Source: the human T2T-CHM13v2.0 reference genome, Homo sapiens
Reading direction: 5' to 3' (one strand)
Assembly (NCBI RefSeq): GCF_009914755.1
Contig: NC_060947.1
Length of the DNA: 64,000 bases
This document shows positions 4,753-58,302 of the stretch, in pieces. A program made the translations under genes and the position numbers. The notes beneath the pieces were generated by a model. That model had not been told where the DNA came from, searched no databases, and saw nothing but the letters and a program-made list of their open reading frames with translations. Positions within the stretch are counted from its first letter, which is position 1. Each line of letters opens with the position of its first letter.

Positions 4753-4832
4753 GCACCCCACAGTTTACTTGAAGCACTAAAACAGTATTTAGCTTCTTTG
4801 GAAGAGAAAAATGACACTTTACCTCCTTACTG
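4753..4832 (+). pseudogene. PICALM-like exon A (end of ANTH domain)
   Basis: tttttag|...|gtaagt, 80 nt, phase 0-2; APHSLLEALKQYLASLEEK vs PICALM APSSLLDALEQHLASLEGK. Confidence 0.9.
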
Positions 4833-5009
4833 GTAAGTTAATAAATGTCTTAATGTAGGTTAATTTTGTTTCCCTCTAGATAATTTCCTGCGTCTTGAAT
4901 GTTTAATGATATGCGATCGACTAAATAAATTATGGGCTATGAATATGATGGAATACTATTCAGCTATTTTAAATGATGATATGGGACCGAGGTTTTCAGT
5001 CTTTTGTGG

Positions 5010-5124
5010 GATTCCATACTCTTCGCAGGATGATATGCTTCCCAAAGGAACATCTTTTATTAAACTGAATGATTTGCAAAGTCAGAGATTGGGATGGGAA
5101 TATTCAAGAATTTGATTCCTTCAC
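5010..5124 (+). pseudogene. PICALM-like exon B, decayed
   Basis: GTSFIKLNDLQSQRLGWEYSRI*FLH vs PICALM GLSLTKVDEREKQAALEEEQARLKALK; acceptor reads GG, TGA at 5113-5115, no GT donor. Confidence 0.5.
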
Positions 5125-5354
5125 CTAGGGGCTCCTTTAGTGAGAATAACTATTATTGTAGAAGATTATTTAATGACGTGTCAAAGTGCTCATTCATGGA
5201 ATAGAACACATAGTAACATTCAAGACGTGTGTATAGATACACACATCTATCTACACATACACATACATGTACTCTGCTATATATGCATATACATATAAAC
5301 TGAATAATGCAAAATTTGAGGTATGTCACCCCAAACTGTTCACATTAGCTATTT

Positions 5355-5667
5355 CTTTTTTCTTTTTCTTTTTTTTTTTTTTTTTGAGACAGAGTCTCAC
5401 TCTGTCGCCCAGGTTGTAGTGCAGTGGCGTGATCTCGGCTCACTGCAACCTCCACCACCTGGGTTCAGGTGATTCTCCTGCCTCAGCCTCCCCAGTAGCT
5501 GCAATTACAGGCACACGCCACCACACCCTGCTGATTTTTGTATTTTTAGTAGAGACGGGGTTTCACCATGTTGGCCAGGCTGGTCTCTAACTCCTGATCT
5601 CAGGTGATCTGCCTGCCTCAGCCTCCCAAAGTGCTGAGATTGCAGGCGTGAGACACTGCAACCAGCC
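5355..5667 (-). mobile_element. AluS
   Basis: Full dimer with polyT; TSD TTAGCTAT on both sides. Confidence 0.92.
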
Positions 5668-5727
5668 TTAGCTATCTCTAAGTGTAACAATTATGGTTGA
5701 TTTCCATTTTCTTTTTTGTATTTTTCT

Positions 5728-11640
<5,913 letters not shown>

Positions 11641-11907
11641 CTTTTTTGTATTTTTCTATATTTTCAACAATCACTACAAAGGTCACATAATATTAATTCA
11701 TTAGACTTTTTAAGGTTGTATTGATTGTAATCTATTTATATTATCACCTTCTCTTAGACCACAAGCCTATTGACTATTTCTTAATTATCTTTATCACAGA
11801 CAGACATATAGTTAGTATATAGTTGGAGAGATGGATGGATAGATGGATAAACCAAAGAAATGTAAGTTCAGCCAGGCAGAATATATGTAATTCTATTTAT
11901 TATCCAG

Positions 11908-12014
11908 TGTGCCTCATATTTACGGTCATCTTTTAAGTCTTCAACGTGCATTGACTACATCCTTCCCAAATAGTCCAGTTGTGACAGCTTCAGCAAGCAG
12001 AGCTTGGTTTGCAG
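11908..12014 (+). pseudogene. PICALM-like exon D
   Basis: tatccag|...|gtaatg, 107 nt, phase 2-1; HLLSLQRALTTSFPNSPVVTASASRAWFAG vs PICALM DLLDLQQPTFHPSVHPMSTASQVASTWG. Confidence 0.75.
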
Positions 12015-12082
12015 GTAATGTGGCATTATTACATGATTATGTAAGTAATAACTGAAGATAGGATTAGAATCTTCAATTTTTT

Positions 12083-12997
12083 TTAAATTTTATTTTACTT
12101 TATTTTTTTATTTTATTATTATTATACTTTAAGTTTTAGAGTACATGTGCACAATGTGCAGGTTTGTTACATATGTATACATGTGCCATGCTGGTGTGCT
12201 GCACCCATTAATTCGTCATTTAGCATTAGGTATATCTCCAAATGCTATCCATCCCCCCTCCCCCCACCCCACAACAGTCCCCGGAGTGTGATGTTCCCCT
12301 TCCTGTGTCCATGTGTTCTCATTTTTCAATTCCCACCTATGAGTGAGAACATGCGGTGTTTGGTTTTATTGTCCTTGCGATAGTTTGCTGAGAATGATGG
12401 TTTCCAGTGTCATCCACGTACCTACAAAGGACATGAACTCATCATTTTTTATGGCTGCATAGTATTCCATGGTGTATATGTGCCACATTTTCTTAATCCA
12501 GTCTATCGTTGTTGGACATTTGGGTTGGTTCCAAGTCTTTGCTATTGTGAATAGTGCCGCAATAAACATACATGTGCATGTGTCTTTATAGCAGCATGAT
12601 TTATAATCCTTTGGGTATATACCCAGTAATGGGATGGCTGGGTCAAATGGTATTTCTAGTTCTAGATCCTTGAGGAATCGCCACACTGTCTTCCACAATG
12701 GTTGAACTAGTTTACAGTCCCACCAACAGTGTAAAAGTGTTCCTATTTCTCCACATCCTCTCCAGCACCTGTTGTTTCCTGACTTTTTAATGATCGCCAT
12801 TCTAACTGGTGTGAGATGGTATCTCATTGTGGTTTTGATTTGCATTTCTCTGATGGCCAGTGATGGTGAGCATTTTTTCATGTGTTTTTTGGCTGCATAA
12901 ATGTCTTCTTTTGAGAAGTGTCTGTTCATATCCTTTGTCCACTTTTTGATGGGGTTGTTTGTTTTTTTCTTGTAAATTTGTTTGAGTTCATTGTAGA
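12083..12997 (-). mobile_element. 5'-truncated young L1PA (ORF2 C-terminus plus 3'UTR)
   Basis: ORF2 C-terminal peptide [21 protein letters not shown]; TSD TAGAATCTT(C/T)AATTTT at ~12065 and ~12998. Confidence 0.93.
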
Positions 12998-13069
12998 TAG
13001 AATCTTTAATTTTTTTCACTGCTAAACTACCAGCTGTGTCTACTGCCTCTTCCTGAAGCAGTATTTGAC

Positions 13070-13470
13070 CGAGCACTTTCATTCCTAGGAATTTATTCAA
13101 CATATATAGTCAAAATTGTGAAATGATATATGATCAAGAATATTCATTGCAACATTATAATAGCAATGGCACAATTAATAAGAGGCTTGCTTTTATATAA
13201 CTGAAATGTAACAATCTCCAAGTTGTATTGTTAAATGACAAATGAGCAAGATGTGAAACAAAGTATAGTATACTATCATTTTTATTTTTTAAGATAGTAA
13301 AAAGAAGGAATATGTATGTAATGTCTTAAATAATACTTCTGGAAGGATATATAAGAAATGAGTTAAAATGGGCTGCTTCCAAAAAGAGTTTGGTGGTTCA
13401 TGGAAAGAGATGGGTGGGTGAGTCTCCACCATATACCATTTTCTAACTTTTGAAATTAATACCATGAAAA
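13070..13470 (+). mobile_element. Ancient L1M 3' fragments
   Basis: cattcctaggaatttattc...atattcattgcaacatt resembles the decayed L1 ORF2 end. Confidence 0.5.
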
Positions 13471-13597
13471 TAATTACCTATTATTAATATATAAAGTTTA
13501 CAAAGAAACAAAAATATACATCCATACAGTGTGATACTTTGTAATGCTTAAGATGGAAATCCTTTGTAATTTCTTACATTTAGTTTGCTTCATACTT

Positions 13598-14064
13598 AAG
13601 TGGTGTTCTGGAGCCAACTCCTACTAGCTTAGAGGAGCCATAAATTTCCAGGAATATTTCTAGCTGGTTGATGTCACATTGGCAACTTGAAATTGGTCAC
13701 GATGGGAGTATTTATCCTACAGAAATGGGCAAACACTACAAATTAAGCTTTTTTTTTTTTTTTGGAGCCTTGCTCTGTTGCCAGGCTGGAATGCAGTGCA
13801 ATCTCCACCTCCTGGGGTTCAAGCAATTCTCTTGCCTCAGCCTCTCGAGTAGCTGGGACTACAGGCACATACCACCATGTCTAGCTAATTTTTGTATTTT
13901 TAGTAGAGATGGGGTTTCACCATGTTGGCTAGGATGGTCTCAATCTCTTGACCTTGTGATCTGCCTGTCTTGGCCTCCCAAAGTGCTGGGATTACAGGTG
14001 TGAGCCACTGCACCCAGCGTTTTTCTTGAGAGCTGTTTGTTATACATTTATTGGCACACAACTG
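13598..14064 (+). mobile_element. MER63 (hAT) interrupted by an Alu
   Basis: agtggtgttctggagcc...catttattggcacacaactg termini; core matches the MER63 at 61957. Confidence 0.75.
13749..14018 (-). mobile_element. AluS with small deletions
   Basis: polyT plus Alu dimer. Confidence 0.9.
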
Positions 14065-14274
14065 CTCATAGGCAGCCATATTTTGGTTATCTCTACTCTA
14101 GACACAAATCCACGTAATAATGAGCAATATTATCATAGGGCTTATATAGCAGTGTTATCATAGGGTTTATATGTATTTGAATTAAATTTTGTTCTTATTT
14201 TAACTTAAATATTTAGACTGTATGTATGTTAAATGTTTTTATTTTTCTTTTATATATATATATATTTTCAATGG

Positions 14275-14370
14275 ACAAATCTTCTGCATTTTTAATGGCG
14301 AGTTCAACCAAAGCTACGATAAACATAAGTTCTTTGCGTAAAACAATATGCATAGAAAAACTGTACACTT
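14275..14370 (+). pseudogene. Possible decayed PICALM-like exon E
   Basis: DKSSAFLMASSTKATINISS vs PICALM DPFSA...PFLTKSSGDVHLSISS; acceptor reads GG, donor unclear. Confidence 0.3.
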
Positions 14371-14457
14371 GGTTCATTTCCAAAAGAATAACTACTGTCA
14401 CTTTTCTGAGTCCTTGTGCTTTGGGTATTATTAGTGCTTACAACAGATGTTACAAGA

Positions 14458-14860
14458 CAGTTTAACATAGTGGTTAAGAGAATAAGCTATGGATTCAGTT
14501 CGATGTGTATGTATTCTAAAGGCCTATGGGCGTGATTACCAACAGACCAATACTGACTACTGGTGATCTCCACAGTAGTGTCACCCTCATTGCTTCAACC
14601 AATTCTATTGACAATACTGTGACCAGTTGAAACCACTTTTTATCTTAAATTACTATAATTTACAAATGCTGGCCATGGAGCCAGAGTGCTTGGATTCAAA
14701 TTTCACTCTGCCATTCATAGACTGTGTTTTTGAGCAGATCATTTAGCCTCTCTGTACCTCAGCTTCCTTATCCTTTTAAGATTGCTGGCAAAATTAAATG
14801 AGTTGATATACACAGAGTGATTAGAACAGTGCCTAGCCCATAGTAAGTGCTGTTATTGTT
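14458..14860 (+). mobile_element. MIR split by a ~170-bp insert
   Basis: atagtggttaagag...ggagccagagtgcttggattcaaat...agaacagtgcctagcccatagtaagtgct. Confidence 0.75.
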
Positions 14861-14929
14861 GTTTTTGTACTTCTATCCTTCTATCACTCTTACCAACTTA
14901 TTCCATGGTAAACCAAAAGCTCTATCCTT

Positions 14930-16312
14930 GGCAGTTTCACTGAATGATTTTTCTCTATCTCTGGCCTTGGTTGGAGATACTTCCCTTAGGGTTTTAATTA
15001 CTATGTATATTCTGGGGAGAGAGAAAGAGAGAGAGAGAGAATTATATTTCTGTTTACATTTATATCTACAGCTCCAAACTTATATATCCAGCTGTCTAAT
15101 GGACTTTTCCACTTGCATGTTCTACAATTATCTCAAACTCAATTTATCCAAAATGAAATGGCTCACTTACCGTCTCCCAAACCTTGCTCCTTTGCCTTTG
15201 GCATGTGCTTAGTAAATGGCACTGTTATCCATTTACTCAGGTGCTCAGTTGATACCAGGGAATTATTTTTGATACTTCCTTCTCCCTCACTTCCATATCC
15301 AACACATTACCAAATCCTATTCATTCTACTGCTCAATGATCTCTCAATTCTCTCCACTTCTTTCTATCCAAACTGCCTCAACCTTAGCTAAAACCACTGT
15401 CATTTCTCTCTTGGATTACTATAATAGCTACATAACTGCCCCCCCCACATCCATTTGCCCTCCTATAATCCATTCTGAATATGGCAATCAGAGTGATATT
15501 TTAGAAAGTCAAATATAATCATGCTATTCCCTTGATCAAAACCTTTAAGAGAATTTCAGTTATCCAAGGATAAAGCCTACAAGCTTCATGTTGTGTTGTT
15601 CTTGCTCAACTTTCTGGGATACTGGAGTTGTTTCACTTATTTACACATCCCCCAGGGTCTTTCTAATTCTCAGGCTGGAATCCTTTTCTCTCCTTCCCCT
15701 GGCCCTAATCCTCATGGCCTATATAACTTATATTTTATCCTGTAAGTCTCAGATTAACTAACACAGAAGACTAATTCTTGACTCCCTAGATGAAGTTAAA
15801 TTTCCTTGATACATTCATGTAGTATTCTGTACTTCTTCTTTTATAATATTCAACAAATTGTAATTTTACTCAGATCCTGCAGGATCACCGTGATTCACTT
15901 TCTCACATCCTTTAGGTCATTACTTAAAAGTACCCTTCTCGGTGAGCCATTCCTATTTAAAATTTAAATTACTGCATGCGCCAAACTAAATACATAAAGC
16001 AAAAGTTATTAGAGATACATGGAGAACTTGAGAAAAATACTACTATAACGGGCAATTTCAAACCATCTCTTTCATTATTGGACATATCTCTCCCACTGAC
16101 ATATCATGTCTCTTTCCCTGATGTTTTTTCCTTAGCACTTATCAGTATCTGACATAGCATATACTTCATCTTGGTTGTTTTCTGTCTCCATTAGAATGTA
16201 AATCACATGAAGGCAGGGATATTTATCTTTTTTCCTCACTGCTGTATCTTTAGCACCTACTACAGTGTCTGGCACATAACAAGGGCTAAATTAAAATTTA
16301 TTCAATAAATAA
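14930..16312 (+). mobile_element. L2 fragments ending in an L2 3' tail
   Basis: tctcaaactcaatttatccaaaatgaa; tagaatgtaaatcacatgaaggcaggga...cagtgtctggcacata. Confidence 0.7.
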
Positions 16313-16444
16313 CTTTAAATCACTCTTCTTTTACCTAATAATTTGAGGTCCTGTTAGTTTGTAGTGGGAGGGTACACATATATCATTACTCTATTGATAT
16401 AAACTTGGTTTATGTTTTCATCTCATTTTGTCTCTTATTTTTAG

Positions 16445-16575
16445 ATTATTTTGACTACATGATACATTACAACCATCATTACCTTCACAAGCCCACGAAC
16501 CTATTGGAGCCAGACAGCAAGGTGGAACGATTATAGCAAACAACCTAAATGGCTCACCTGCTAGCCTTGTAGGAC
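16445..16575 (+). pseudogene. PICALM-like exon F (frameshifted, donor lost)
   Basis: Strong pyrimidine tract plus ttag|; DYF/LHDTLQPSLPSQ...NNLNGSPASLVG vs PICALM GFDELGGLLKPTVASQ...DDLDSSLANLVG; 131 nt; donor reads ATAAAC. Confidence 0.8.
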
Positions 16576-16683
16576 ATAAACATCTATTTTTAAATTAATA
16601 TTTTAAATATATTTTAAAATGCATTTTAAGAAAAAGTATTTACACAAAAATAATGTAAACCTTCTGTTTGTTTTATGAAACAG

Positions 16684-16714
16684 ATTTTTACTTCGAATAA
16701 ATCCCAGTCAATAG
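16684..16714 (+). pseudogene. PICALM-like 31-nt exon G with in-frame TAA
   Basis: aaacag|...|gtaagt, phase 1-2, same size and position as the recalled PICALM NLGIGNGTTKN exon; TAA at 16698-16700. Confidence 0.75.
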
Positions 16715-17229
16715 GTAAGTTTTTATTATTTAAAAAAAGATAGAGAGGGAGGGCTGGGCAGGAAAGAAAAAAAAAGGCAACCAATAAATACATGCCAGAG
16801 GAAATGGCTTGTAAGAGTAAGAACTAGAAAATAATTTTCAAATTAGATATCATAATTGCTTGTTATGAAACTCTATAACATGTGGACTTTTTAAACTTAA
16901 ATAATTAAAGTGGAAAATTTATTTATTATGCACTATCCTAACTTTTGTAGGTAAAGTTCTTGGTTAAAGTATACTGTATTACATGGTTCTCCACCTACCC
17001 ATCTGATAATCCTTCTTGGCTCATCTGAAGGATCTTCTTTTCTAGGCATGTCTTAAATATTGGCATTCCTCGTAGTTCTTTGTATTCTTGGTTCTTTTCC
17101 TTATGATAATAGACTCTATTAAATAAATAATGCTTATTTTTATTTTATCAAGCAAAAATAATGAATCAACTAGTTGGAGCTCCTGAGTATCTATCATAGG
17201 TTAGCCAGTGTGAACTTCAGTGAGTTAAC

Positions 17230-17769
17230 TCCTAAAATTTCAGCCAAAAAAATAACAGGGAAATGGAAACCAAAGGAAGGCAGAAGTGATAATATTAACA
17301 ACAAGTAATATAGAATGTAAGGTTAAAAGCCAGGTAAAGAGGATAAGGATAAGGATTTTTAGGCCTTATCTGACAAAAAGGGCATGATCTGATGTTAATC
17401 AGCTAGGGGAAACAGCAAGGCCTGTTTCTTCAGATTCTTCTCTGTGATCCTTTGCCTTCAGACATAAGGATGTTTCTTACCTGGATTTTTAGGTCTACCT
17501 AAAAATCCCTCCTTTAAGGATAAGGAGGGATATCATATAACGGTAAAAGGCACTATTTATGAAGACATAACAATATTAATGCTGTAGCACTAAGCTAAAT
17601 ATAGACAGCAAAAGTTATTAGAAATACATGGAGAACTTGAGAAAAGTATAATTATAATGGCAATTTCAGATCACTTCTTTCATTATTAGACAGGTCTAGT
17701 AGATAAAACATAAGTAAAGACGAAGGAATTCGAATAAAACATAATAAATAAATAACAATAATAAACCAG

Positions 17770-17814
<45 letters not shown>

Positions 17815-18960
17815 CGTTCATTTTCTTTAAAGCAATAATATACTTGGCCACAAAGAAAACCGTAACAAAATTTTGAAGAATTTTACAGTCTATATTTTCT
17901 CATAATTCAATAAAATTAGAACTAATTAATAAAAATTTGACCATGAAAATTTTAACCATTTAGAAATTTAAAAATATAATTCTTTTGCCCAAGAGGAAAT
18001 CAAAAGGAAAATTATTAACTATCTAAAGGTAATGAAGAAGAAAACTTCATACCAATGCTAATAGGGCACTGAGAGAGCTAAAACTCAAGATAAAAATTTG
18101 TGGCTTTAAATATCATTATGGTTTTAAAAAGATAAATTTTAAGAAAGAATTTCATTTTTATCTTAAGAAAGTAGAAAATAATTAGGAAGATAAAATTTTT
18201 AAAGCTAAAAGCTTAAATTAATAACACTACCAACAAAAACAGATACAAAATTCCTTGTAAAGTCTAATAAAATAAGCTCCTCTGATTAAATAGAAAAGAG
18301 AATGCAAAAGTTTACAACATTGGGAATAAAAGAGCTGACAGATGGAGGGGAGATTAAAATAATTATGATTGTGCAACCGTTTGGCAACAGCCTGTTTGAA
18401 AATCTAGAGGAAATGGATGATTTCCAAGTAAAATATAAATTACTATATACCGTCCAAGAAGAAGCAGAAAGATGCATAGACCAATTACCACATAAGTCTT
18501 TGAAAAGGTAGCTGAAGATCTACCAGTGCATCATGAGTTCACAGTTGAGCTATCTAACCCTTAAAGAATAGGTAATTTCAATTCTATGCCATAGAAAAAG
18601 GGAAGATCTCCAATTCAGTGTAGAAAGTGACATAACTTTAATATCAAAGCTGAATGAAGATGAACAAAGAAAGGAAGCTGCTAACTGGTCTCACGTATTC
18701 ATTATATTTGGCAGAATCCTACATAAAATATTAACAAATAAAATCCAAGAATATATTTTAAAAATTCATTGCTTGTACAGACTGCTTCTTTGATATTCGA
18801 GCATACTCTATGAAACCCTGCCTGAGATGATACATTTATAGTTTTATAATCTTAAGTATCTAGTAAAGATAATATAAGCTTGATTGACTAGTAAACCTAG
18901 GTATAAAAAATTGTATGCCTGTATTATATTTAATGTTGACAACTCTGAAGATATTCCAGT
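17230..18960 (+). mobile_element. Ancient L1M ORF2 (EN-linker) relic
   Basis: FENLEEMDDF resembles L1 [10 protein letters not shown]; heavily decayed. Confidence 0.7.
17771..17810. repeat. (AC)20 microsatellite
   Basis: Direct read. Confidence 0.97.
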
Positions 18961-19087
18961 TTTTATTTTACCGACAATCTTTCTTTTAAAAATGTGTCTT
19001 GAACATTTATTTATTTTTAATTGACAAAATTTATATATTTATGATTTACGTTGTACAACAGGTGTTTTAATATACATTGTGGAATGA

Positions 19088-19425
<338 letters not shown>

Positions 19426-19763
19426 TAAACCATTTTTTTTGTGGTGCGAACATGTAAAATCTACTTTCAGCAATTTTGAATATTCAATACACTCTTATTA
19501 ACTACAATCAATGTGTTGTACAATAGGCCTCCTGAACTTACTCCTCTGTCTAGCTGAAGTTTTGTATCCTTTGATCAACATCTCCCCAATCCCTTTTCTC
19601 CCCAGGCCTCACAGCCCCTGGTAACTACAATTCTACTCTCTGCTTCTATGAGTTCAACTTTTTTTAGATTCCACATATAAGTGATATCATACAGTACTTA
19701 TCTTTCTGTGTCTGGCTTATTTCACTTAGCATAATGTCCTCCAGTTTCATCTATGTTGTTGCA

Positions 19764-19946
19764 AATGTCCACTATCACTATTCTAGACCAGGCCACTTGA
19801 GACCTCTTGTTTGGATGACTTGAAAAGATTTCCTAACTGACTTCTTCACTCTATCTTACTTGCCCACTATTCATGTTCCATACTCCTCCCAGTCTAATCT
19901 TTCAAAAATGTAAACATGATCATGTTATAGCTTCAGTTCCCCACTG
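19764..19946. repeat. Inverted copy of 22671-22853
   Basis: 183 bp, ungapped, 18 mismatches by hand count (~90%). Confidence 0.92.
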
Positions 19947-20886
19947 AAAGGGAAGGATTTCCTTCTTTTTATAATGAAATAGTATTTAATTATGTGTATA
20001 CCACACTCTCTTTATCAGTTCATCCATTGATGGACACTTGGGTTGATTCTGTATCTTGACTATTGTGAATAGTGATGCAATGAACATGGCAGTGCAGAGA
20101 TCTCCTCAATATACTGATTTCGAGTCTTTTGGATATATACCCAGAAGTAGGATTGCTGGATCATATGGCAGTTCTATTCTTAGCTTTTTGAGGAAAACCA
20201 CAGTTTTCCATAATGGCTGTACTAATTTATATTCCCACCAACAGTATACAAACGTTCTCTTGTCTCCACATCCTTGCCAACACTTACCTTTCATCTTTTT
20301 GATAATAGCCATTCTGACAGATATGAGCTGATATCTTGTGGTTTTAATTTGCACTTCCCTAATGATAAGTGATGTTGAGCATTTTTTCATATATCTGTTG
20401 GTCATTTGTATGTCTTCGTCTGAAAAATGTCTATTCAGGTCCTTTGGCCATAATTGGGTTATCTCTTTTCTTGTTATTGAGTTGTCTGAGTTCCTTATGT
20501 ATTTTGAATATTAACCCCTCTTCAGATGTATGGCTTTCAGATATTTTCTCCCAATCCATAGGTTTTCTCTTACTCTTTTAATTGTTTCCTTTGCTGTGCA
20601 GAAGCTTTTTAGTCTGATTTAATTCTATTTGTTTATTTTAGCTTTTGTTGCCTGAGCTTTTGGGGTCAAATCCAAAAAATTGTTGCCCCAACTAATGTTA
20701 TATAGTTTTTCCTCTGTGTTTTATTCCAGTATTTTTACAATTTCAGGTTTTATGTTTAAGTCTTTAATGCATTTTGAGTTGATTTTTGTATATGGTGTGA
20801 GATAAGGGTTCGATTTCATTCTTCTGCATGTGAATATTACGTTTTCCCAGCACTGTTTATTGAAGAGACTGTTCTTTTCCCATTAG

Positions 20887-21010
20887 ATCTGACATGAAGT
20901 GGTGTCAGCCTTCAGAGATGGAAATTAATGATGGAATAAACTGGCAGTTGAATACCTTCACCTGCACATCAACCATATGGAATTCCATTGCTGCTCCTCT
21001 TCCCTACATG
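20887..21010 (+). pseudogene. PICALM-like exon H (NWQ motif)
   Basis: cattag|...|gtaaaa, 124 nt, phase 2-0, open; DMKWCQPSEMEINDGINWQ..TSTIWN vs PICALM DVNWSQPGEKKLTGGSNWQ..PTTAWN. Confidence 0.9.
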
Positions 21011-21469
21011 GTAAAATTTGTGCTGTATAATTACTCTAGTTTTTTGATATATATATATATAACATAGAAAAATTGTATTAAGGATGTAAGTAGAGGAAGA
21101 AGTGTTTTCTTTTTAATCATTTTTAATGTATTACACTAATACTCGTAAGTATATTAAACTATTTCATAAATTGAAATGTGAAAATTCACATTAGGATCTC
21201 TATAAGGCCTGCAGTTCTCTTCTCATCATAGAATCTACACTTCCACTATTTTGCTCTACTTTTATTGTGCACCTATTAGGTACCATGCACTGTGCTAAGT
21301 GGTAAAGACACAGAATCAAATAGGAACTAGGCTCTACTCTCAAGGAGCTACTGTAAGGGTAGATGAAATAAAGACATTGAATATTTTAAGTGCTAAGATG
21401 GAACACTTCAGAGGGTATATTGATTAATTTTACAAGTAAACTGAACATGAGGTAAAAGGAGATGAGGTG

Positions 21470-21650
21470 AATCTATTGTATATTTCAAAATAGCTAGAAA
21501 ATAATAATTTGAGTGGTTCTAAGATAAAGAAAAGACAAATATTTAAGGTGATGGATATCCCAATTACCCTGATTTGATCTTTACAAATTATATGAATGTG
21601 TTATCACATGTACCCCCGAAATATGTACATTTATTATGTATCAATAAAAA
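21470..21650 (+). mobile_element. Short L1MA 3' end
   Basis: L1MA 3'UTR; TSD AAAGGAGATGAGGT at 21455 and 21661. Confidence 0.8.
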
Positions 21651-21724
21651 TTTTTTTCAGAAAGGAGATGAGGTAAATTGATAGTCACCATGTAGCGGGA
21701 TTGATAAGGAACTAGAGAGACCAA

Positions 21725-22481: not shown

Positions 22482-22489
22482 ACCAGTTG

Positions 22490-24406: not shown

Positions 24407-24812
<406 letters not shown>

Positions 24813-26253: not shown

Positions 26254-26736
<483 letters not shown>

Positions 26737-30644: not shown

Positions 30645-34413
<3,769 letters not shown>

Positions 34414-41790: not shown

Positions 41791-42239
<449 letters not shown>

Positions 42240-43141
42240 TTATCCAGCTTGCCGTTCTGTGTCTTTTAATTGGGGCATTTAGCCCATTTACATTTAAGGT
42301 TAATATTTTCAGGTGTGAATTTGATTCTGTCATCAGGATGCTAGCTGGTTATTTCACAGACTTTTTATGTGGTTGCTTCATAGTGTCATTGGTCTTTGTA
42401 CTTCAGTATGTTTTTGTAGTGGCTGATAACAGTTTTTTCTTTCCGTATTTAGTGCTTCCCTCAGGAGCTCTTGCAAGGCAGGCCTGGTAGTGACAAATTT
42501 CCTCAGTATTTGCTTGTCTGAAAAGGATCTTATTTCTCCTTCACTTATGAAGTTTAGTTTGGCCAGATAGGAAATTCTGGGTTGGAAATGCTTTTCTTTA
42601 AGAATGTTGAATATTGGCCCCCAATCTCTTCTGGCTTGTAAGGTTTCTGAAAAGAGGTCCACTGTTAGTCTGATGGGCTTCCCTTTGTAGGTGACCTGGC
42701 CTTTCTCTCTGGCTGTCCTTAACATTTTTTCCTTCATTTTGACCTTGGAGAACCTGATGATTATGTGTCTTGGGGTTCATCTTCTCATGGAGTATTTTAC
42801 TGGAGTTCTCTGGATTTCCTGAATTTGAATGTTGGACCTGTCTTGTTAGGTTGGGGTAGTTCTGCTGGATGATATCCTGAAGTATGTTTTCCAACTTTGT
42901 TCCATTGTTCCCCTCTGTTTCAGGTACCCCAATTATTCGTTGGTTTGGTCTTTTTACATAATCCCATAGTTCTCGGAGCTTTTGTTTGTTCCTTTCATTC
43001 TTTTTGCTCTAATCTTGTCTGTCTTATTTCAGCAAGATAGTCTTCAAGTTCTGAAATTCTTTCCTCTGCTTGGTCTATTTGGTTATTGGTACTTGTGGTT
43101 GCATTGTGAAATTCTCATGTTATGTTTTTCAGCTCCATCAG

Positions 43142-44212
43142 TATTGGGGGAACCCGCCCCCAATATTTCAACATAGGTTCTTTCTATTTTCCATACGTGT
43201 CGGCTGGCTGAGAAATAAAGAGAGACCGTACAAAGAGAGGAATTTTACGGCTGGGCCACTGGGGGTGACATTACATATCAGTAGGACTGTGATGCCCACC
43301 TGAGCCTCAAACCAGCAAGTTTTTATTAAGGGTTTCAAAAGAGGAGGGGGTGTAAGAACAGGGAGTAGGTACAAAGATCACATGCTTCAAAGGGCAAAAA
43401 GCAGAACTACTAATAAGGATCTAACAAAGATCACAAGGCAAAGGGCAAAAGCAGAACTATTGATAAAGGTCCAACAAAGATCACAAGGCAAAGGGCAAAA
43501 GCAAGAACCACTGATAAGGGTCTATTTTCAGCGGTGCACATGTTGTCTTGATAAACATCTTAAACAACAGAAAACAGGGTTTGAGAGCAGAGAACCAGTC
43601 TGACCACAAATCTACCAGGGTGGAGTTTCCCAACCCTAGTAAGCCTGAGGGTACTGCAGGAATCCAGGGCATATCTCAGTCCTTATCTCAACTGCACAAG
43701 ACAGACATTCCCAGAGTGGCCGTTTATAGACCTCTCCCCAGGAGCGCATTCCTTTCCCAGGGTATTAATATTAATATTCCTTGCTAGGAAAATAATTTAG
43801 CGATATCTCTCCTACTTGCACGTCCATTTATAGGCTCTCTGCAAGAAGAAAAATATGGCTCTTTTTGCCCGACCCCGCAGGCAGTCAGACCTTATGGTTG
43901 TCTTCCCTTGTTCCCTAAAACTCGCTGTTATTCTGTTCTTTTTCAAGGTGCACTGCTTTCATATTGTTCAAACACACGTTTTACAATCAATTTGTACAGT
44001 TAACACAATTATCACAGTGGTCCTGAGGTGACATACATCCTCAGCTTACGAAGATAACAGGATTAAGAGATTAAAGACAGGCATAAGAAATTATAAAAGT
44101 ATTATTTGGAAACTGATAAATGTCCATATTAAAATGAAATCTTCACAATTTATGTTCCTCTGCCGCAGCTCCAGCTGGTCCCTCCATTCAGGGTCCCTGA
44201 CTTCCCGCAACA
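43142..44212 (-). mobile_element. MER11 (HERVK11) solo LTR
   Basis: Minus strand starts tgttgcgggaagtcagggacc; internal caaagatcacaaggcaaagggcaaaagca repeats; flanks CATCAG/CATTGG. Confidence 0.9.
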
Positions 44213-45152
44213 CATTGGGTCATTTCTGTTCCTCTCTAAAGTGGTTATTCTGGTAAACAGCTCCTGTGATGATTTATCATGGTTCTTAGCTTCTCTGCGT
44301 TGGGTTAGAACATGGTTCTTTAGCTCAGTGAAGTTCATCATTACCCACGTTCTGAAGCCTACTTCTGTCAGTCCATCCATCTTGGCCTCCACCCAGTTCT
44401 GTGCCCTTGCTGGAGAGGTGTTATGATCACTTGGAGGAGAAGAGGCACTCTGGCTTTTTGAGCTTTCAGCATTTTTTTTGTTGATTCTTTCTCATCTTAA
44501 TGAGTTTACCTAGCTTTGATCTTTGAGGCTGCTGACCTTTAGATGGGGTTTTTATGGGGACTTTTTTGTTGATGCTGTTGTTGCTGTTGCTTCCTGTTTG
44601 TTTTTCTTTTAACAGTCAGGCTACTCTTCCATAGGGCTGCTGCAGTTTGCTTGGGGTCCACTCCAGATCCTAGTCACCTGGGTCCCTCCTGCACCTGGAG
44701 GTATCACCAATGGAGGCTGCAGAACAGCAAAGATGGCTTCCTGCCCCTTCCTCTGGGAGCTCTGTCCCAGAGGGGCACCAACCTGATGCCAGTGGGAATG
44801 CTCTTGTATAAAGTGTCTGGCGACCCCTATTGGGGGGCTCTCACCCAGTCAGGAGGCATGGGATCAAGGACCCACTTAAGGAAGCACTCTGGCTGCCCCT
44901 TGGTGGAAGGGGTGCACTGTGCTGGGGAGAAATCTTACTCGTCCACACTGCCTGGATTCCTCAGAGCCAGCAGGGAGAAAGACTAAGTCGGCTGATCCAT
45001 GGAGACTGTGGCTGCCCCTCCCCCCAGGGGCTCTGTTCCAGGGAGATCAGAGTTCTGTCCATAAACCCCTGGCTGGAGTTGCTGAAATTCCTGCAGCAAG
45101 GCCCCACCCAATGAGGAGGGTTGGGTTAGGGTCCAGCCTAAAGAGGCAGTCT

Positions 45153-45228
45153 GGGCTGAGCGTGGTGGCTCACACCTGTAATTCCAGCACTTTGGGAGGC
45201 CGAGGTGGGTAGATCACCTGAGGTCAGG
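45153..45228 (+). mobile_element. Alu 5' stub (3'-deleted)
   Basis: First ~75 nt of Alu only. Confidence 0.85.
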
Positions 45229-45915
45229 TGATATAACTGTGTCTCATGTTATATCACCTAGTAATGGACAAAGAAACAAAGACAGGGATTAAAGTTATGA
45301 CTGGTATTACTCAGCTTTTCATCTGCTGTGTTGAAAGCCAACTTATCATTTTTCACATTATTGTATACATCTAAAAGACATCATAAACGAAGACTGGAAG
45401 TGAAAACTGAAAAACTGAGAAAGTTTTATTTGTTGGAGGTAATGTGATTATGGTTGAAATTTTTATTTAATTTGTCTATTGTTATTGTTTTGTTTATGCA
45501 GTACAGAAAAGTCACAACTCTTTCTTTCTTAGCTAAGTTCACATTACTCTCTGATGTGCAATGTTTTCCAAGCAAATTCCTGTTCCTCAGGAAATTTGAG
45601 CTATTGTGAACTCTGCTCTGCCTTCTAAAACAACACAGCAATAATTAGATGTCTTTAAACCTCTTAAGGAAAGATAATTGCTTAAGGAAAGATCACTGTC
45701 TTGGCTATAAAAAGTTCACTATGAATTTGTTCTCAATGTTAAACATATAGCAGAAAATGTTCTGTATCTTTTAATATTGCTTATTAAATACTAGTAGAAA
45801 ATTTACTTTTTGTCAAGGTTCTACCTCCAGTGACTCCCCAGCAAATGCCTATGTATAGAATGGTAAGAAAAAACGCTCTTTTTTAATCATTCATTTGAGT
45901 TTATTAGAAAATTTT

Positions 45916-52078
<6,163 letters not shown>

Positions 52079-52454
52079 AATGCTTGGAATCAATTACACC
52101 CAATTGCTGTTAAATTTCTCCAATTTATCATGCTATACCTTGCATGAGTAGTCAAAGAGGACATAGTATACAAAGTATATAACACAAAGATAGTTTGAGT
52201 AATACGGTGGAAAGACTATATCACAAGATTGGAAACACCCTGGGATCAAGATCAAATTCTAATGATTTGCACAGCTATCGGACCTTGTGGTGTAACACAT
52301 GGATTATGCATTATGTGTTAGAAATGGTTTGTGAAGGAATTCATCGATTTTGTAGCTTGTTTTATTTAGGCTCTGCACAGAACATCTATACTGTATGATT
52401 GTTCACTTTATCTCGTGCAGCTGTTTGCTAGAGAACCATAAAGAAGGGTTTTGA

Positions 52455-52751
<297 letters not shown>

Positions 52752-53483
52752 AGAAAAGCCTCTTTTAAGATATCAAGAGTTGGATATATGGTTACAACTA
52801 CGAACAGAAAAAAATTATACAGATATTTTTAAATGGAAGGTAATCCATCCACATTCTTTTCTTGCATTGGAAAAAATGGCAGCTCTCTGAAAAATAATAT
52901 AGCACATGCCTTGTGAGATGGCTAACAGTAATAAAGAAAGGAACCCTGGAAATGGGGATGAAAAGAGATGCACAGAAGTGGAATAGTCAAGAGAAAGCTG
53001 CTTCAGAATTAATAGATAATCCAAAATAGGAATTATCAACATGCACATAATAGAGATTCAAGTATTAATATGGTTTAGTTTAGGTTACATTCTTGGTTTA
53101 TTCTAAGAGTTATGAACTACTGTTTGCTGCTGGTTTTTCTCCCCTTCTGAAGGATTTTATTGTTGTCTCATTTTGTTTTGTTTTATTTGCCATTTTGCTG
53201 TTTGGGATCACTTCTAGTCTATATTAATCAGGTTTAAAAAGTTGAACTGATTTTGCTGTTATCATATAAAGCTTCTAATGGGAGACATTGTTAATACAGA
53301 TAGAATATCTGGAATTTTTCTGATTCCAACTTTCTTTTAACTCATTTTTAGTTTATTGTTTATATTCTGCTTATTTGGCAAATTTTCATGATTTAAAATT
53401 TTTCTTAGTTAAAAATTGTTTGTAATCACTAGTTCTATTTGTAGCTTCAGTGCACTGCATAAATTTTATGCAATACAATACAG

Positions 53484-53571
53484 GTAATGGAAACTCTGAA
53501 GTCATTTAGTTGCTCCAGCCACACACCAATTAGCTCATGTTGTTTTTGCTGTTGGTCCATTCCAGAAAATG
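53484..53571 (+). pseudogene. Possible PICALM/SNAP91-like exon I
   Basis: Ends ...VAPATHQLAHVVFAVGPFQKM|gtaaat in the expected slot; acceptor and frame ambiguous. Confidence 0.3.
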
Positions 53572-53609
53572 GTAAATATACAGGAACATACAGAGGATAA
53601 CAAATATTC

Positions 53610-55130
<1,521 letters not shown>

Positions 55131-57173
55131 TTTGAGTCCTGTTTGTGGACTTCTCTATACATCCTCTATAATAATATACTGTATGTGCCAGTTAGTTTCC
55201 AGAAGAGGATTCGAGTATAATATGATACTAGGTGTGCATGCATGTTAGAACTATGAGTGAACCCAAGCCCAGAAAAAATAGACTTAGTAAGAATTTAAGG
55301 TAGAAGGAGTAGAACTGAGATACTCCACAGGTCAGGGTCCAAGTACCAAAGGAGTGTGGTAGATTCCAGGTTAGGCATCAGTAACCAAAGTCCATTTATT
55401 AGTATAACAGGGCTTGAGGCAAAAGTATGGGTTGCAGAAAAAACTATGAAGGGCTACGTAAAAAGCCAGGCTATTTCAGATTCTTTCCAAACAATGGTGA
55501 ACAGAACAGGGCCCATTTCCCAGGGAGAGAAGCTGACAGGAATCGGGTAAAAAGTAGACCCTAGCATTGACTTGACTACAGAATGAGAATCCCACTCCTC
55601 AGGCATGAATAACTATGGACCCAGGTGGACTGAAGGAGGTATATTCACCTAGGTTTCCTAAAAGGACTAGGTGCTCAGTCTAGTCACCACATGGGGCTAT
55701 TCCAGGGTGTACTATCTGATAGCATCACAGAAGTAGACCAAGATCTTCATCCTCAGGCAAGAGCAATTTCAAGGATTTCTAGGCAGCACTGGTTTGTAAG
55801 GCAAGAGGTCTTGGTACCTTGCTCACTTAGGCCCTTTGTTTGATACTGCAGAAGTGGCATCCCTGCACACTGAAGATAGCTAGGAACTGCTTCCAAATTG
55901 CTGGCATGGGGCTGAGACAGGAGGAAGGACTGGAAAACTTAAATGTTACTATCAACTAAAATTCTTTTAACTTCATTTTCACTTCTCATCCATTCTATAT
56001 ATATGTGGGTATTTTTTTAAGATCCAAGTGCTAGACTCTGTTAACCTTCCTCTTATTCAGTTGGGACCCTATCTCTAGTCTGTCGAGAAAATTAATGTTT
56101 CTGATTATATTTAATATATTCATTATCCTTTCCAATGTGTATGTTATTCACATGCTCAGTGAACATGTCCTCTACAACATTTTCATTGATAGATGAAGAT
56201 GAACAAGAAGATCAAGAACATAACCCTGTAGTGTATCACCAGAAACCTCTCAGCAGGTCAACATATTAACCCTTAGCCTTTGGTTATGAGTCATTTGAAC
56301 AGTTTCTAATTTACCCAGTTGTTCTTAAGTAAGCCCATATTTCCTCAATCAGTGAGGGAGAAGTGAGGGAAAAGATCAAGAGGAGGAAGCAGTAGGCTTG
56401 GTAAGCCATGCCAAGGAGTTTACACACTATCTACAGTCAATGAGGGTCCATTTAATGGTTTTAAACAGTGGAGGGAGATGGTCACAGTCTTATATTAATG
56501 GGTCTGTGCAACCTCCTTAGTTTGTTCTTCATTAATTGCTATTCTTTCATCTTTTGAATATAATTTAAAATCTGAGCTCATAAAGTAACTAGAAGAGTAA
56601 AACAAACTAAAGAGATGTCAAAGCCTTTCTAGTTCCACCTACGTCCTTGACCTGATGTGCTTGCGCTTCCTTCACTACTTTCATCTGGCAAATTTCTATA
56701 CATCCTTCACATTTAACCTGTAGATCGCCATATCAAATCATATGTTCATACTAAAGTATTTCATGAAAGATACATACATACCAGTATACATTTAACATGT
56801 TCCATGTCCACCTACAAACTTCCTTTCTTTTTCCTATGAGTATTATTGGCCTTGAGATGTTGGAGTTCTGTCTTGAAAAGAGTCATTTGTAGGCCTTACT
56901 TTGTGGCTAATTCATCCCTGCTTTTCAATAACTATTCTTTAGGTTTTCCACACTCTTTGGTCTGTCACACTTTATCACTAGCAGCCCCTTCACAGATACA
57001 TTTTCGTCTTTTTCTTTGCATCTGGCATTTAGCATTCCTTTCAATTGATGCTTATTAAATATTAATATAATATTTACTCTAGGGGGCTACTTGTTCTCAT
57101 GGTACTATTGTATTAGGAGAGCAATTAAATACTAATTAATTTTTAACTGATTGTTTTCTTTTACAATTCATAG

Positions 57174-57281
57174 GTTCCAACTCCATTGGGAGCTCCTTCT
57201 CTAATGGCACCTCAACCCATGATTCATACCCAGCAAGGCCTAAGGACCAGTAGTCCTTCCACTCCATCCCCAGAGCATCAG
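57174..57281 (+). pseudogene. PICALM-like exon J
   Basis: Branch point, pyrimidine tract and catag|...cag|gtacgt; 108 nt, phase 0-0, open; PTPLGAPSLMAPQPMIHTQQGLRTSSPSTPSPEHQ vs PICALM PPQMGSVPVMTQPTLIYSQPVMRPPNPFGPVSGAQ. Confidence 0.85.
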
Positions 57282-58176
57282 GTACGTTTGGGCTGTTGTT
57301 GCTAAGGGCCTTGGCAGAGATAGGCAGTCACTGGAGGCAGGATCAGTGTTATAATGGAGTTTTGCAACATAGCCATCTTTTGTATACTGTTGGTCTCTCA
57401 TAGAAGAAAGCATAGTTCTAACATTTTCATCATCATAGAAAGACACAGAACTGTGCAGACCTGGTGCAGACCTCTATAAACTTGTGTTGTTAAGCCTCAA
57501 CTGGCTTCTTATATTTATTCAGCCATCCTTTTATTCATTTATTTGTTTATTCAGTCAACAAACCCAACTGTGATTAGTATTGGAGAAGTGGCTAACTCAG
57601 TCTGGAGATTTCAAGGATGACTTACCAGAGAACTGATATTTAAGTTTAATAATAAGATTTAAAAATAGACAGAGAGTTAACAGAGTGAGAAAGCGTGCTC
57701 CAGATAAACACAGACACAGAGAGGGAAGCACAAAGCACCATGGGAACTCAAAGAACGGAATAATTAATTTAGCAAAGGAAGCTTTCAAGTACTGAATGAT
57801 AAAGAAGATTTCAAATAGTAGATGTATAGCGGATAGAAGAAGTTTGGCATTACAGGCAGAAAGAATAGGTTGAACAAAGAAGTGGAAGTAGGCAGTGGTA
57901 ATATGAGTGAGTATAGCTGAAGTGTATGGGAGAGTGTCATGATCCAGGTGTCCATTGTCTCAGAGTATTGTTTTCTAGAAGACTTTACAAGGTTTCTTCT
58001 TTCAGTCTTCAGCTGATGTGCTGAGCCCCCTGATACCTGAACATTTGTTTTAGGAGGAGTGACAAAGCTTCAGGTGTTAGATAATGAGAAAAATGACGAG
58101 AGTTTTGTATTAAAATATTTGTAATTTATTTCATAACTACAAATAAAAATATGTATAAATGATTAAATATTTACAG

Positions 58177-58302
58177 ATCTGTCTCTCATTCAGACGCAGT
58201 CCAAGTAGAGGTCCCAAAGCAAAAAGATTCAGATTCAGAAGTGAATAAAAAGATCTTTCAACAGGCTGAACTGAATCCTCCACATCTTCCAAGTAAAATA
58301 AA
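58177..58302 (+). pseudogene. Last coding exon, SNAP91-type C-terminus
   Basis: ttacag|; SPSRGPKAK/DSDSEVNK/DL across A-run slips vs SNAP91 SPKKPPAKDPLADLNIKDFL; unshifted stop at 58246; AATAAA at 58297. Confidence 0.55.

What the first reader, a model, noticed from the sequence alone, without database searches (positions are those of the whole stretch)
4753..58302. Hidden third CALM/AP180-family gene: intron-containing PICALM/SNAP91 paralog buried in L1s
Seen: splice-bounded exons at 4753-4832, 11908-12014, 16445-16575, 16684-16714, 20887-21010, 57174-57281 and 58177+, all on +, with joining phases 0-2, 2-1, 1-1, 1-2, 2-0, 0-0. Known (recalled): PICALM has SLLDALEQHLASLE, DLLDLQ, DLDSSLANLVG, W..QPGE..NWQ and QP.IY.Q in this order and phase, and humans have only two such coding paralogs (PICALM, SNAP91). 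Inference: introns plus strong protein divergence argue against a retrocopy and for an ancient paralog, possibly a lost ohnolog or unitary pseudogene. The ORF track does not reveal it.
Basis: partly seen in the sequence, partly recalled or inferred. Interest (0 to 1): 0.92.

Follow-up and report, generated by a model that had tools for sequence, protein, structure and literature searches.

The report
Dead third CALM gene beside VBP1
Human Xq28 holds the broken, intron-containing remains of a third PICALM-like gene that birds, fish and many other mammals still carry, so humans have lost one member of this endocytosis gene family.

Summary
The claimed exons match an X-linked 'PICALM-like' protein predicted in other mammals: 12 tblastn pieces at E<1e-3, all on +, in gene order, against 0 in 20 shuffles. 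The predicted ANTH exons exist 6.5-14.5 kb upstream of the window. The relic has 16 exons over about 73 kb, with PICALM/SNAP91 intron positions and exon sizes.

It is the human remnant of a third vertebrate CALM-type gene lying directly upstream of VBP1. Bird, lemur and deer read-through models join it to VBP1 exon 2. An ANTH tree gives a third clade of sauropsids, ray-finned fishes and eutherian X copies (99/98), beside PICALM proper. The non-ANTH tail agrees independently.

The human copy is dead: a 1-base deletion in exon 4, a 1-base insertion and scrambled end in exon 5, an AT donor, and an in-frame TAA. Exon 57174-57281 survives as an alternative VBP1 exon.

Corrections: exon start 16492 rather than 16445, an extra exon at 45818-45862, and an unsettled last exon. 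Eight literature searches found nothing on it. Other species' annotations list it as 'PICALM-like'. Interest is moderate.

The parts
4753..4832 (+). Exon 9 of the relic, the first exon inside the window (APHSLLEALKQYLASLEE...). Exons 1-8 (the ANTH domain) lie upstream of the window at window places -14500 to -6550 and are listed in section 4 of the full report, because this field takes only places 1-64000.
   Evidence: (E 4e-8). Upstream exons.
11908..12014 (+). Exon 10. Counterpart of the bird stretch holding DLFDLQ; human reads HLLSLQ.
   Evidence: (E 2e-8).
16492..16575 (+). Exon 11, short form. The donor after 16575 is AT, not GT. The long form of horse and chinchilla would begin near 16461, where human has no AG.
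   Evidence: (E 5e-13).
16684..16714 (+). Exon 12, 31 bases, with an in-frame TAA at 16698-16700 where orthologues have E or G.
   Evidence: No tblastn piece of its own; supported by position, AG/GT and phase.
20887..21010 (+). Exon 13 (SDMKWCQPSEMEINDGINWQ...).
   Evidence: (E 6e-14).
45818..45862 (+). Present in the horse, seal, armadillo and sloth models, skipped in the cow and lemur models.
   Evidence: E 0.08 alone; AG/GT, in phase on both sides.
57174..57281 (+). Exon 15. Also an exon of alternative RefSeq VBP1 transcripts. In the lemur read-through model (deer and bird models likewise continue into VBP1 exon 2) its counterpart is spliced in phase to VBP1 exon 2 (window place 68482, beyond the window).
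   Evidence: (E 8e-11). Hub annotation in the finding.
58177..58333 (+). Region of the last exon; boundaries unsettled. One frame resembles the seal and rabbit model ends. Another (from 58194) resembles the marmoset and lemur ends and stops after TQSK in human.
   Evidence: (seal, E 1e-3).

Best explanation
The window holds the 3' half of a dead gene. The whole relic runs from window place -14500 to about 58300 (chrX:153,373,500-153,446,300 of T2T-CHM13). It lies on the + strand between BRCC3 and VBP1 and has 16 exons, cut at the same places as PICALM and SNAP91.

It is the human remnant of a third vertebrate CALM-type clathrin-adaptor gene whose place is directly upstream of VBP1. That gene is almost invariant in birds, geckos and ray-finned fishes. 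It was heavily remodelled on the eutherian stem: a long ANTH stem branch, a start at MGxxxSK, loss of two or three lysines of the lipid-binding patch, and loss of about 150 residues of the motif-bearing tail. It is still predicted whole in many eutherians.

In human it is disabled several times over, so it makes no CALM-like protein. The lesions are a frameshift in ANTH exon 4, a frameshift and damaged end in exon 5, a lost donor after exon 11, and a TAA in exon 12.

The one piece still in use is exon 15 (57174-57281). Alternative VBP1 transcripts take it up and splice it to VBP1 exon 2, the same junction as in the read-through model of lemur.

Shown here: the exons, their homology, the lesions, the neighbourhood and the tree. 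Inferred: that the orthologues are functional, when the human gene died, and what the eutherian protein does.
For: Homology and structure:
- Collinear exon matches, with a shuffle control.
- Pfam ANTH hits upstream of the window on chrX +.
- Canonical junctions and exon sizes equal to PICALM.

Orthologues:
- 93 of the 120 listed hits are eutherian X-type proteins, and 39 of those 93 are at least 400 aa.
- The human read-through groups with macaque at 100/99, inside an X clade at 100/100.

Third clade:
- Sauropsid, fish and X copies form a clade at 99/98. PICALM proper has 99/95 and SNAP91 has 98/95.
- The non-ANTH tails of horse, seal and armadillo score 91-168 bits against sauropsid 'PICALM-like', 29-96 against fish, 18-50 against PICALM proper (no hit for armadillo), and nothing significant against SNAP91 (seal only, E 0.8).

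Synteny:
- Many bird records of this gene are named prefoldin subunit 3 isoforms.
- Fused models carry ANTH plus Prefoldin domains.
- Their prefoldin parts match human VBP1 exons at window places 68479-87142, at 74-100% identity (86-100% for exons 2-5).
- Peromyscus models are named after BRCC3.

Lesions.

No other copy in the genome: the ANTH search found only the loci on chromosomes 11, 6, 7 and 12, the relic, and weak ENTH-type hits.
Against: - An AU test on the ANTH domain does not reject a tree with the X copies and PICALM proper held together (lnL difference 9.85, p 0.107).
- ANTH identity of the X copies to the third clade and to PICALM is the same, 64-73%.
- All 'intact' orthologues are computer predictions. 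Their C-terminal ends differ between species, so some may themselves be decaying.
- I saw no expression data.
- Only one human haplotype was read, so no lesion is shown to be fixed.
- I could not see GENCODE/Ensembl or HGNC, so the relic may already be annotated there.
- I did not verify here that birds or fishes also keep PICALM proper. An eel paper lists four Calm/Picalm genes (passages), which fits but proves nothing.
- No marsupial, monotreme, amphibian or shark sequence was seen.
Confidence: 0.9

Rival explanations
1. The X-linked gene is a duplicate of PICALM made in early mammals. It would then not be the orthologue of the sauropsid and fish gene next to VBP1.
For: The AU test does not reject X copies plus PICALM proper as one clade (p 0.107). 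ANTH identity of the X copies to PICALM equals that to the third clade. The long stem (0.54) makes placement by sequence alone unsafe.
Against: The bird gene of the third clade and the mammalian X gene both sit directly upstream of VBP1 and are joined to VBP1 exon 2 in predicted read-through models. The tail, which is independent of the ANTH columns, is two to five times closer in bits to the sauropsid gene than to PICALM proper. The free tree supports the third clade at 99/98.
Confidence: 0.04
2. The human locus still encodes a protein. Candidates are a short N-terminal ANTH fragment, or an isoform that skips the damaged exons.
For: Exon 1 keeps its ATG. Exons 1-3, 6-10 and 13-15 keep their frames and splice sites. 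Bonobo models of 197 and 214 aa are predicted by skipping exon 5. Exon 15 is transcribed within VBP1 isoforms (hub annotation).
Against: The frameshift in exon 4 gives a TGA inside the ANTH fold. Skipping exons 4 and 5 would remove core helices of the domain. RefSeq annotates no gene here (hub table). ANTH identity between the human read-through and macaque is 93%, which by my rough estimate from general knowledge is close to unconstrained change.
Confidence: 0.04
3. Retrocopy or chance similarity.
For: None beyond the general abundance of pseudogenes.
Against: Sixteen exons spread over 73 kb, with AG/GT borders at PICALM's intron positions. Twelve significant pieces against none in 20 shuffles.
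Confidence: 0.005

Closest known systems
PICALM (CALM), human chromosome 11
   Same: ANTH domain, with the horse orthologue scoring 408 bits against the CALM ANTH structure 1hf8. The same intron positions and exon sizes in the ANTH part.
   Different: A separate clade in the tree. The relic is broken. Its eutherian orthologues have changes at CALM K28, K38 and K39 and tails of 122-220 residues. Twelve of 18 have no D[LI][LF] motif and 17 of 18 have no NPF.
SNAP91 (AP180), human chromosome 6
   Same: ANTH domain and the same intron positions.
   Different: More distant, at 58-63% ANTH identity, in a separate clade at 98/95. The tails show no significant similarity.
'Phosphatidylinositol-binding clathrin assembly protein-like' genes of birds, geckos and ray-finned fishes (NCBI/UniProt predictions). 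An Atlas cluster near the pufferfish member bears the name 'picalm b' (a lead only).
   Same: The same clade, the same neighbour VBP1 in birds, and the closest tail. Bird, gecko and gar proteins match the human locus exon by exon.
   Different: These are 600-675 aa and nearly invariant: bird against gecko 99%, gecko against Polypterus 97% over the ANTH domain. They keep the KKKH stretch (printout), 2-3 D[LI][LF] motifs, and an NPF near a conserved end (10 of 11). The eutherian forms lost these, and the human one is dead.
Human unitary pseudogenes: genes lost in the human lineage with intact orthologues elsewhere. The concept is from general knowledge; no example was examined here.
   Same: An intron-containing relic at the ancestral position, with disabling mutations, predicted intact orthologues in other species, and no working copy elsewhere in the genome.
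   Different: One exon lives on inside a neighbouring gene's alternative transcripts (hub annotation).

Membership tests
CALM/AP180 family (ANTH-domain clathrin assembly proteins) | ANTH domain (Pfam PF07651) | tested here: met
   Two chrX exon hits pass the 21.5-bit cut-off (30.8 and 30.1 bits) and a third scores 19.5 bits. Orthologues score 184-207 bits. 408 bits against the CALM ANTH structure 1hf8.
CALM/AP180 family (ANTH-domain clathrin assembly proteins) | Exon-intron structure shared with PICALM and SNAP91 | tested here: met
   The same boundaries for exons 2-9. Sizes are 76/103/94/112/107/42 in PICALM against 76/102/-/112/107/45 in the relic.
CALM/AP180 family (ANTH-domain clathrin assembly proteins) | Basic lipid-binding patch at the start of the ANTH domain (CALM K28, K38, K40, H41; this residue list is recalled, not from a call) | tested here: not met
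   In the alignment to 1hf8, horse has G at K28, E at K38 and P at K39, and keeps K40 and H41. The human exon 1 reading also lacks the codon at H41. The sauropsid member keeps KKKH (printout).
CALM/AP180 family (ANTH-domain clathrin assembly proteins) | Long disordered tail with clathrin/AP-2/EH-binding short motifs (motif definitions from general knowledge) | tested here: inconclusive
   Third-clade sauropsid and fish tails are 323-377 aa, with 2-3 D[LI][LF] in 11 of 11 and NPF in 10 of 11. I took 20 of the 39 long eutherian models; 2 lacked the anchor motif and 18 were scored. Their tails are 122-220 aa, with no D[LI][LF] in 12 of 18 and no NPF in 17 of 18.
CALM/AP180 family (ANTH-domain clathrin assembly proteins) | Open reading frame | tested here: not met
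   Human has frameshifts in exons 4 and 5, a TAA after QFNA, an AT donor after 16575 and a TAA at 16698-16700.
Third vertebrate CALM paralogue (the gene upstream of VBP1) | Falls in the clade of sauropsid and fish 'PICALM-like' proteins | tested here: met
   The clade has 99/98 support and the X clade inside it 100/100. The alternative of X with PICALM proper is not rejected (p-AU 0.107).
Third vertebrate CALM paralogue (the gene upstream of VBP1) | Tail closest to that clade | tested here: met
   91-168 bits against sauropsid, 29-96 against fish, and 18-50 or none against PICALM proper, for 3 of 3 queries.
Third vertebrate CALM paralogue (the gene upstream of VBP1) | Lies directly upstream of VBP1 on the same strand | tested here: met
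   Human: hub table. Bird, lemur and deer: ANTH+Prefoldin read-through models whose prefoldin part matches human VBP1 exons. No genome map of another species was seen.
Unitary pseudogene | Disabled at the ancestral locus, predicted intact orthologues elsewhere, no working copy in the same genome | tested here: met
   lesions; orthologues; no further copy. Fixation in the human population was not tested.
Processed pseudogene (retrocopy) | No introns | tested here: not met
   Sixteen exons over 73 kb with AG/GT borders.

The most novel reading that the evidence does not exclude
On the eutherian stem the VBP1-adjacent CALM paralogue was not merely let go but rebuilt. The new protein would be anchored by an N-terminal myristoyl group (MGxxxSK start in 61 of 93 models) instead of the lipid-binding lysines. 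It would be stripped of most clathrin and AP-2 motifs, yet kept under purifying selection on its ANTH domain in most eutherian orders (about 80-93% identity between orders). It was then lost in the ape lineage. In parallel, read-through from this gene into VBP1 exon 2 is an old, conserved feature from birds to mammals, and this is why exon 15 outlived the rest of the human gene.
Probability: 0.3. Interest if true: 0.7.

Novelty: new member of a known kind. Interest (0 to 1): 0.58.

Why it matters
PICALM is a leading Alzheimer's-risk gene and a leukaemia fusion partner, and CALM and AP180 are usually treated as the only two vertebrate members of the family (general knowledge).

A third member changes how knock-down and knock-out results in fish, birds and non-primate mammals should be read against human biology. 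It is almost invariant from Polypterus to birds, remodelled in eutherians and dead in humans. Redundancy may exist in those animals that humans lack.

It also gives a dated, stepwise case of gene death on the X chromosome. It explains where an alternative VBP1 exon comes from.

The value is limited because annotation pipelines already list the gene in other species, and because unitary pseudogenes are a known kind of feature.

Tried and rejected
- Searching the human genome with exon 20888-21010 found only the exon itself at E<=0.001. That exon is too diverged to find PICALM directly, so I used the Pfam ANTH model instead.
- tblastn suggested that exon 6 begins at LFNFQ. I rejected this because PICALM and SNAP91 begin that exon at the following codon and the extra residues are the pyrimidine tract.
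- An alternative donor/acceptor pair that would bridge exons 4 and 5 in frame is probably chance, since it does not use the ancestral sites.
- I looked in the human DNA for remains of the central exons present in birds (residues about 290-384 and 420-507). None was found at E<1.
- The non-mammalian hits at the bottom (frog, peafowl, reedfish, nightjar) turned out to be SNAP91, at 97-100% identity to the human SNAP91 exons. They are not orthologues of the relic.
- Further library representatives were fish-type third-clade or other proteins. No marsupial-like intermediate was recognised.
- Literature: searches gave 0 papers. Searches gave 3, 6, 6 and 1 papers, none about a third paralogue or a human relic. 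I read the search listings, plus passages of PMC4199285, PMC5583359 and PMC8834532.
- Earlier findings of this scan were not open.
Full report
**1. The observation**

- All seven follow an AG. Five are followed by GT; 16575 is followed by AT and 58302 by CG.
- Read exon by exon they give CALM-like peptides, such as APHSLLEALKQYLASLEE and SDMKWCQPSEMEINDGINWQ.
- Read as one string they contain stops.

**2. The upstream ANTH exons**

The window is chrX:153388001-153452000 of the genome held as G000. A search of that genome with the Pfam ANTH model gave 22 matches.
- Most fall in four loci on chromosomes 11, 6, 7 and 12. By recall these are PICALM, SNAP91, HIP1 and HIP1R.
- Three lie on chrX +, 8-12 kb upstream of the window:

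| Place on chrX | Score |
|---|---|
| 153375529-669 | 30.1 bits |
| 153379128-280 | 30.8 bits |
| 153380178-291 | 19.5 bits |

The family cut-off is 21.5 bits.

**3. Orthologues in other mammals**

The first chrX ANTH exon, used as a protein query, found 2617 database proteins. The best 120 were listed.
- 93 of those 120 are X-type proteins, at 72% identity or more to the horse member. Of these, 39 are at least 400 aa, 29 are 300-399 aa and 25 are shorter.
- Those that carry a source name are mostly called 'phosphatidylinositol-binding clathrin assembly protein-like'. They come from all four eutherian superorders, for example cow, horse, seal, bats, armadillo, sloth, elephant, rabbit, chinchilla and mouse lemur.
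- Some are named after the neighbours: 'prefoldin subunit 3 isoform' in horse, mouse lemur and deer, and 'BRCC36 isoform' in Peromyscus.
- Primate models are short: bonobo 197 and 214 aa, macaque 309, marmoset 357.

**4. The whole relic**

I ran tblastn of the horse, seal and cow proteins against 94 kb (30 kb upstream plus the window). It gave a collinear series on + from window place -14500 to 58249.
- With the horse query, 12 pieces have E<1e-3 and all 12 are on +.
- Twenty shuffled queries gave none (best E 0.015). The reversed query's best E was 0.92.

A search for GT/AG pairs that keep the frame fixed the junctions. It gave 16 exons. Exons 1-8 lie upstream of the window (window place w = chrX 153388000 + w):

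| Exon | Window place | Note |
|---|---|---|
| 1 | -14500..-14425 | Begins with ATG, reads MGLSASK...; GTGAGT donor; one codon shorter than horse and macaque; GC 0.54-0.58, CpG o/e 0.42-0.45 around it |
| 2 | -12476..-12334 | First ANTH exon; Pfam 30.1 bits; 94% identical to horse |
| 3 | -10365..-10290 | 76 bases, as in PICALM |
| 4 | -9305..-9204 | 102 bases against 103; 1-base deletion near -9289 |
| 5 | -9044..about -8965 | 1-base insertion at -9025; end damaged |
| 6 | -8845..-8734 | 112 bases, as in PICALM; Pfam 30.8 bits |
| 7 | -7815..-7709 | 107 bases, as in PICALM; Pfam 19.5 bits |
| 8 | -6594..-6550 | 45 bases against 42 |

- Exon boundaries coincide with those of human PICALM and SNAP91.
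- Exon sizes match: PICALM exons 3-8 are 76/103/94/112/107/42 bases and the relic's are 76/102/damaged/112/107/45.

This is a gene duplicate with its introns, not a retrocopy.

**5. The human copy is broken**

| Lesion | Where | Evidence |
|---|---|---|
| One base missing in exon 4; the reading GYTMST continues out of frame to a TGA, and FIRRYSKY follows in another frame | near -9289 | |
| One extra base in exon 5 | -9025 | |
| After QFNA an in-frame TAA; the five codons present in macaque and other models are not recognisable; no in-phase GT donor | end of exon 5 | |
| Donor of exon 11 is AT | 16576-77 | |
| In-frame TAA in exon 12 | 16698-16700 | |

- No canonical junction restores the frame between exons 3/4 and 5/6.
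- The bonobo models read exon 4 in one frame and skip exon 5. The macaque model has exon 5 whole.
- I infer from predicted proteins only that exon 5 was damaged in apes and exon 4 later. This needs genome alignments.

**6. What gene it was**

A scan of 1.84 billion representatives with the horse protein found 1978 relatives. The best non-mammalian one, P0121, is from a flycatcher.

Its close relatives (best 120 of 8000 scored) have these properties:
- They are bird and gecko proteins of 460-842 aa, mostly 600-675.
- They are 99-100% identical to it over the first 300 residues.
- They are named 'PICALM-like', 'PICAL protein' or 'prefoldin subunit 3 isoform'.
- Several carry a Prefoldin domain as well.

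I checked the fused models directly.
- Pfam finds ANTH plus Prefoldin in two bird, one lemur and one deer model.
- For one of the bird models (P0347) and for the lemur and deer models, the prefoldin part matches the human VBP1 exons at window places 68479-87142, at 74-100% identity (86-100% for exons 2-5).
- In the lemur model the junction joins the counterpart of exon 15 to VBP1 exon 2, at window place 68482.
- So the bird gene sits directly upstream of VBP1, as does the human relic.

A second family search, from a pufferfish member, showed the gene in teleosts and in Polypterus, gar, bowfin and paddlefish.

**7. The tree**

I took 52 of the 496 database proteins, chosen by me for taxonomic spread and coverage. 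To these I added three readings from the human genome: the relic with X at the breaks, and the PICALM and SNAP91 ANTH parts. A careful IQ-TREE run on 280 ANTH columns gave:

| Clade | Support |
|---|---|
| SNAP91 | 98/95 |
| PICALM proper | 99/95 |
| Third clade: sauropsid + ray-finned fish + eutherian X copies | 99/98 |
| Eutherian X clade | 100/100, stem length 0.54 |
| Human relic + macaque | 100/99 |

Against this, an AU test does not reject a tree that holds the X copies with PICALM proper (lnL difference 9.85, p 0.107). ANTH identities do not discriminate either, at 64-73% to both.

Two independent lines decide the matter.
- Synteny with VBP1 (section 6).
- The tail outside the ANTH columns, where horse, seal and armadillo tails score as follows:

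| Target | Bits |
|---|---|
| Sauropsid proteins | 91-168 |
| Fish third-clade proteins | 29-96 |
| PICALM proper | 18-50 (none for armadillo) |
| SNAP91 | nothing significant (seal only, E 0.8) |

Bird, gecko and gar proteins also match the human locus exon by exon.

**8. How the gene changed**

Outside mammals the ANTH domain is nearly frozen: bird against gecko 99%, gecko against Polypterus 97%, bird against gar 94%. Eutherian copies differ in four respects.
- Start: 61 of 93 models begin MGxxx[S/T]K. By recalled consensus this looks like an N-myristoylation signal. It aligns with residues 19-24 of CALM, so the first 17 or so residues are gone.
- Lipid patch: CALM K28, K38 and K39 are G, E and P in horse. 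That these lysines bind PI(4,5)P2 is recalled, not tested.
- Tail: it is 122-220 residues against 323-377. Twelve of 18 have no D[LI][LF] and 17 of 18 have no NPF. All 11 fish and sauropsid proteins have D[LI][LF] motifs and 10 of 11 have NPF.
- Ends: they differ between species.

Even so, ANTH identity between eutherian orders is about 80-93%. By my rough estimate from general knowledge of neutral divergence, this is far more than unconstrained sequence would keep. I infer purifying selection in many lineages, but no dN/dS was computed. The human read-through against macaque is 93%, which that estimate cannot distinguish from neutrality.

**9. What still works in human**

According to the RefSeq table supplied with the finding, other VBP1 transcripts use exons 45306-45438 and 57174-57281.
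- The second of these is exactly exon 15 of the relic.
- It is in phase with VBP1 exon 2, as in the lemur read-through model (deer and bird models likewise continue into VBP1 exon 2).
- In that frame the first of these exons (45306-45438) is open but has no ATG. The first in-frame ATG lies in the relic exon.
- Whether a protein starts there is not known.

**10. Age of the duplication**

The tree puts the split from PICALM proper before the divergence of ray-finned fishes and tetrapods.

A block duplication is plausible. RAB39B lies 44 kb beyond the window, and its closest human paralogue is on chromosome 11 at 107.97 Mb (75% identity). That is the same chromosome as PICALM at 85.95 Mb. Its name, RAB39A, is recalled. 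This is one gene pair only, so 'ohnolog' is not shown.

An eel study lists four Calm/Picalm genes (passages) and a zebrafish-based paper speaks of two (passage).

**11. Novelty**

Eight full-text searches found no paper on a third CALM/AP180 paralogue, on a human relic, or on PICALM together with VBP1 and BRCC3.
- The library covers open-access papers and bioRxiv only.
- Supplements were not consulted.
- The gene is, however, routinely predicted in other species.
- I could not see GENCODE or HGNC.

I therefore rate it a new member of a known kind: a unitary pseudogene, and a third member of a known family, of moderate interest.

Noticed in passing
window 45306-45438, 57174-57281, and window place 68482 onward (beyond the window): In the frame shared by relic exon 15 and VBP1 exon 2, the alternative VBP1 first exon is open but has no ATG. 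The first in-frame ATG lies inside the relic exon (MAPQPM...). An alternative VBP1 isoform could therefore begin with about 26 residues derived from the dead gene.
   Followed up: partly
window 45818-45862 and 45853-46354: The newly found exon 14 of the relic abuts and overlaps the start of a RefSeq 'enhancer' element (45853-46354). It lies about 400 bases after the alternative VBP1 first exon.
   Followed up: no
upstream of the window, window places -15000 to -14250 (chrX:153373000-153373750; locus L025): The region around exon 1 of the relic is GC-richer (0.54-0.58) with CpG o/e 0.42-0.45, against 0.06-0.16 a kilobase downstream. It looks like a decayed CpG-island promoter.
   Followed up: partly
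L036 (chrX:153495001-153502000); G000:C11:107969005-107969427: RAB39B's second exon has its closest human relative on chromosome 11 (75% identity, E 3e-68), the chromosome that carries PICALM. This is one gene pair in favour of an Xq28/11q duplicated block.
   Followed up: partly
database proteins P0440/P0464 (Albula) and P0445/P0482 (Scleropages): Two early-branching teleosts each have two third-clade genes on different contigs, falling in two fish subgroups of the tree. This fits the teleost genome duplication. An Atlas cluster near the pufferfish member is auto-named 'picalm b', so fish 'picalm a/b' names may hide an older paralogy.
   Followed up: no
database proteins P0105, P0107 (Peromyscus): Models named 'BRCC36 isoform' carry an ANTH domain. 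Pfam found no other domain in P0107. The upstream neighbour BRCC3 is apparently merged with the PICALM-like gene in that annotation.
   Followed up: partly
G000:C17:19231173-19231487, C17:51403750-51404073, C22:40358400-40358690, C6:19235409-19235528: Weak ANTH-model hits elsewhere in the genome (16-28 bits). They cover the N-terminal third of the model and are probably ENTH-type genes. They were not examined.
   Followed up: no
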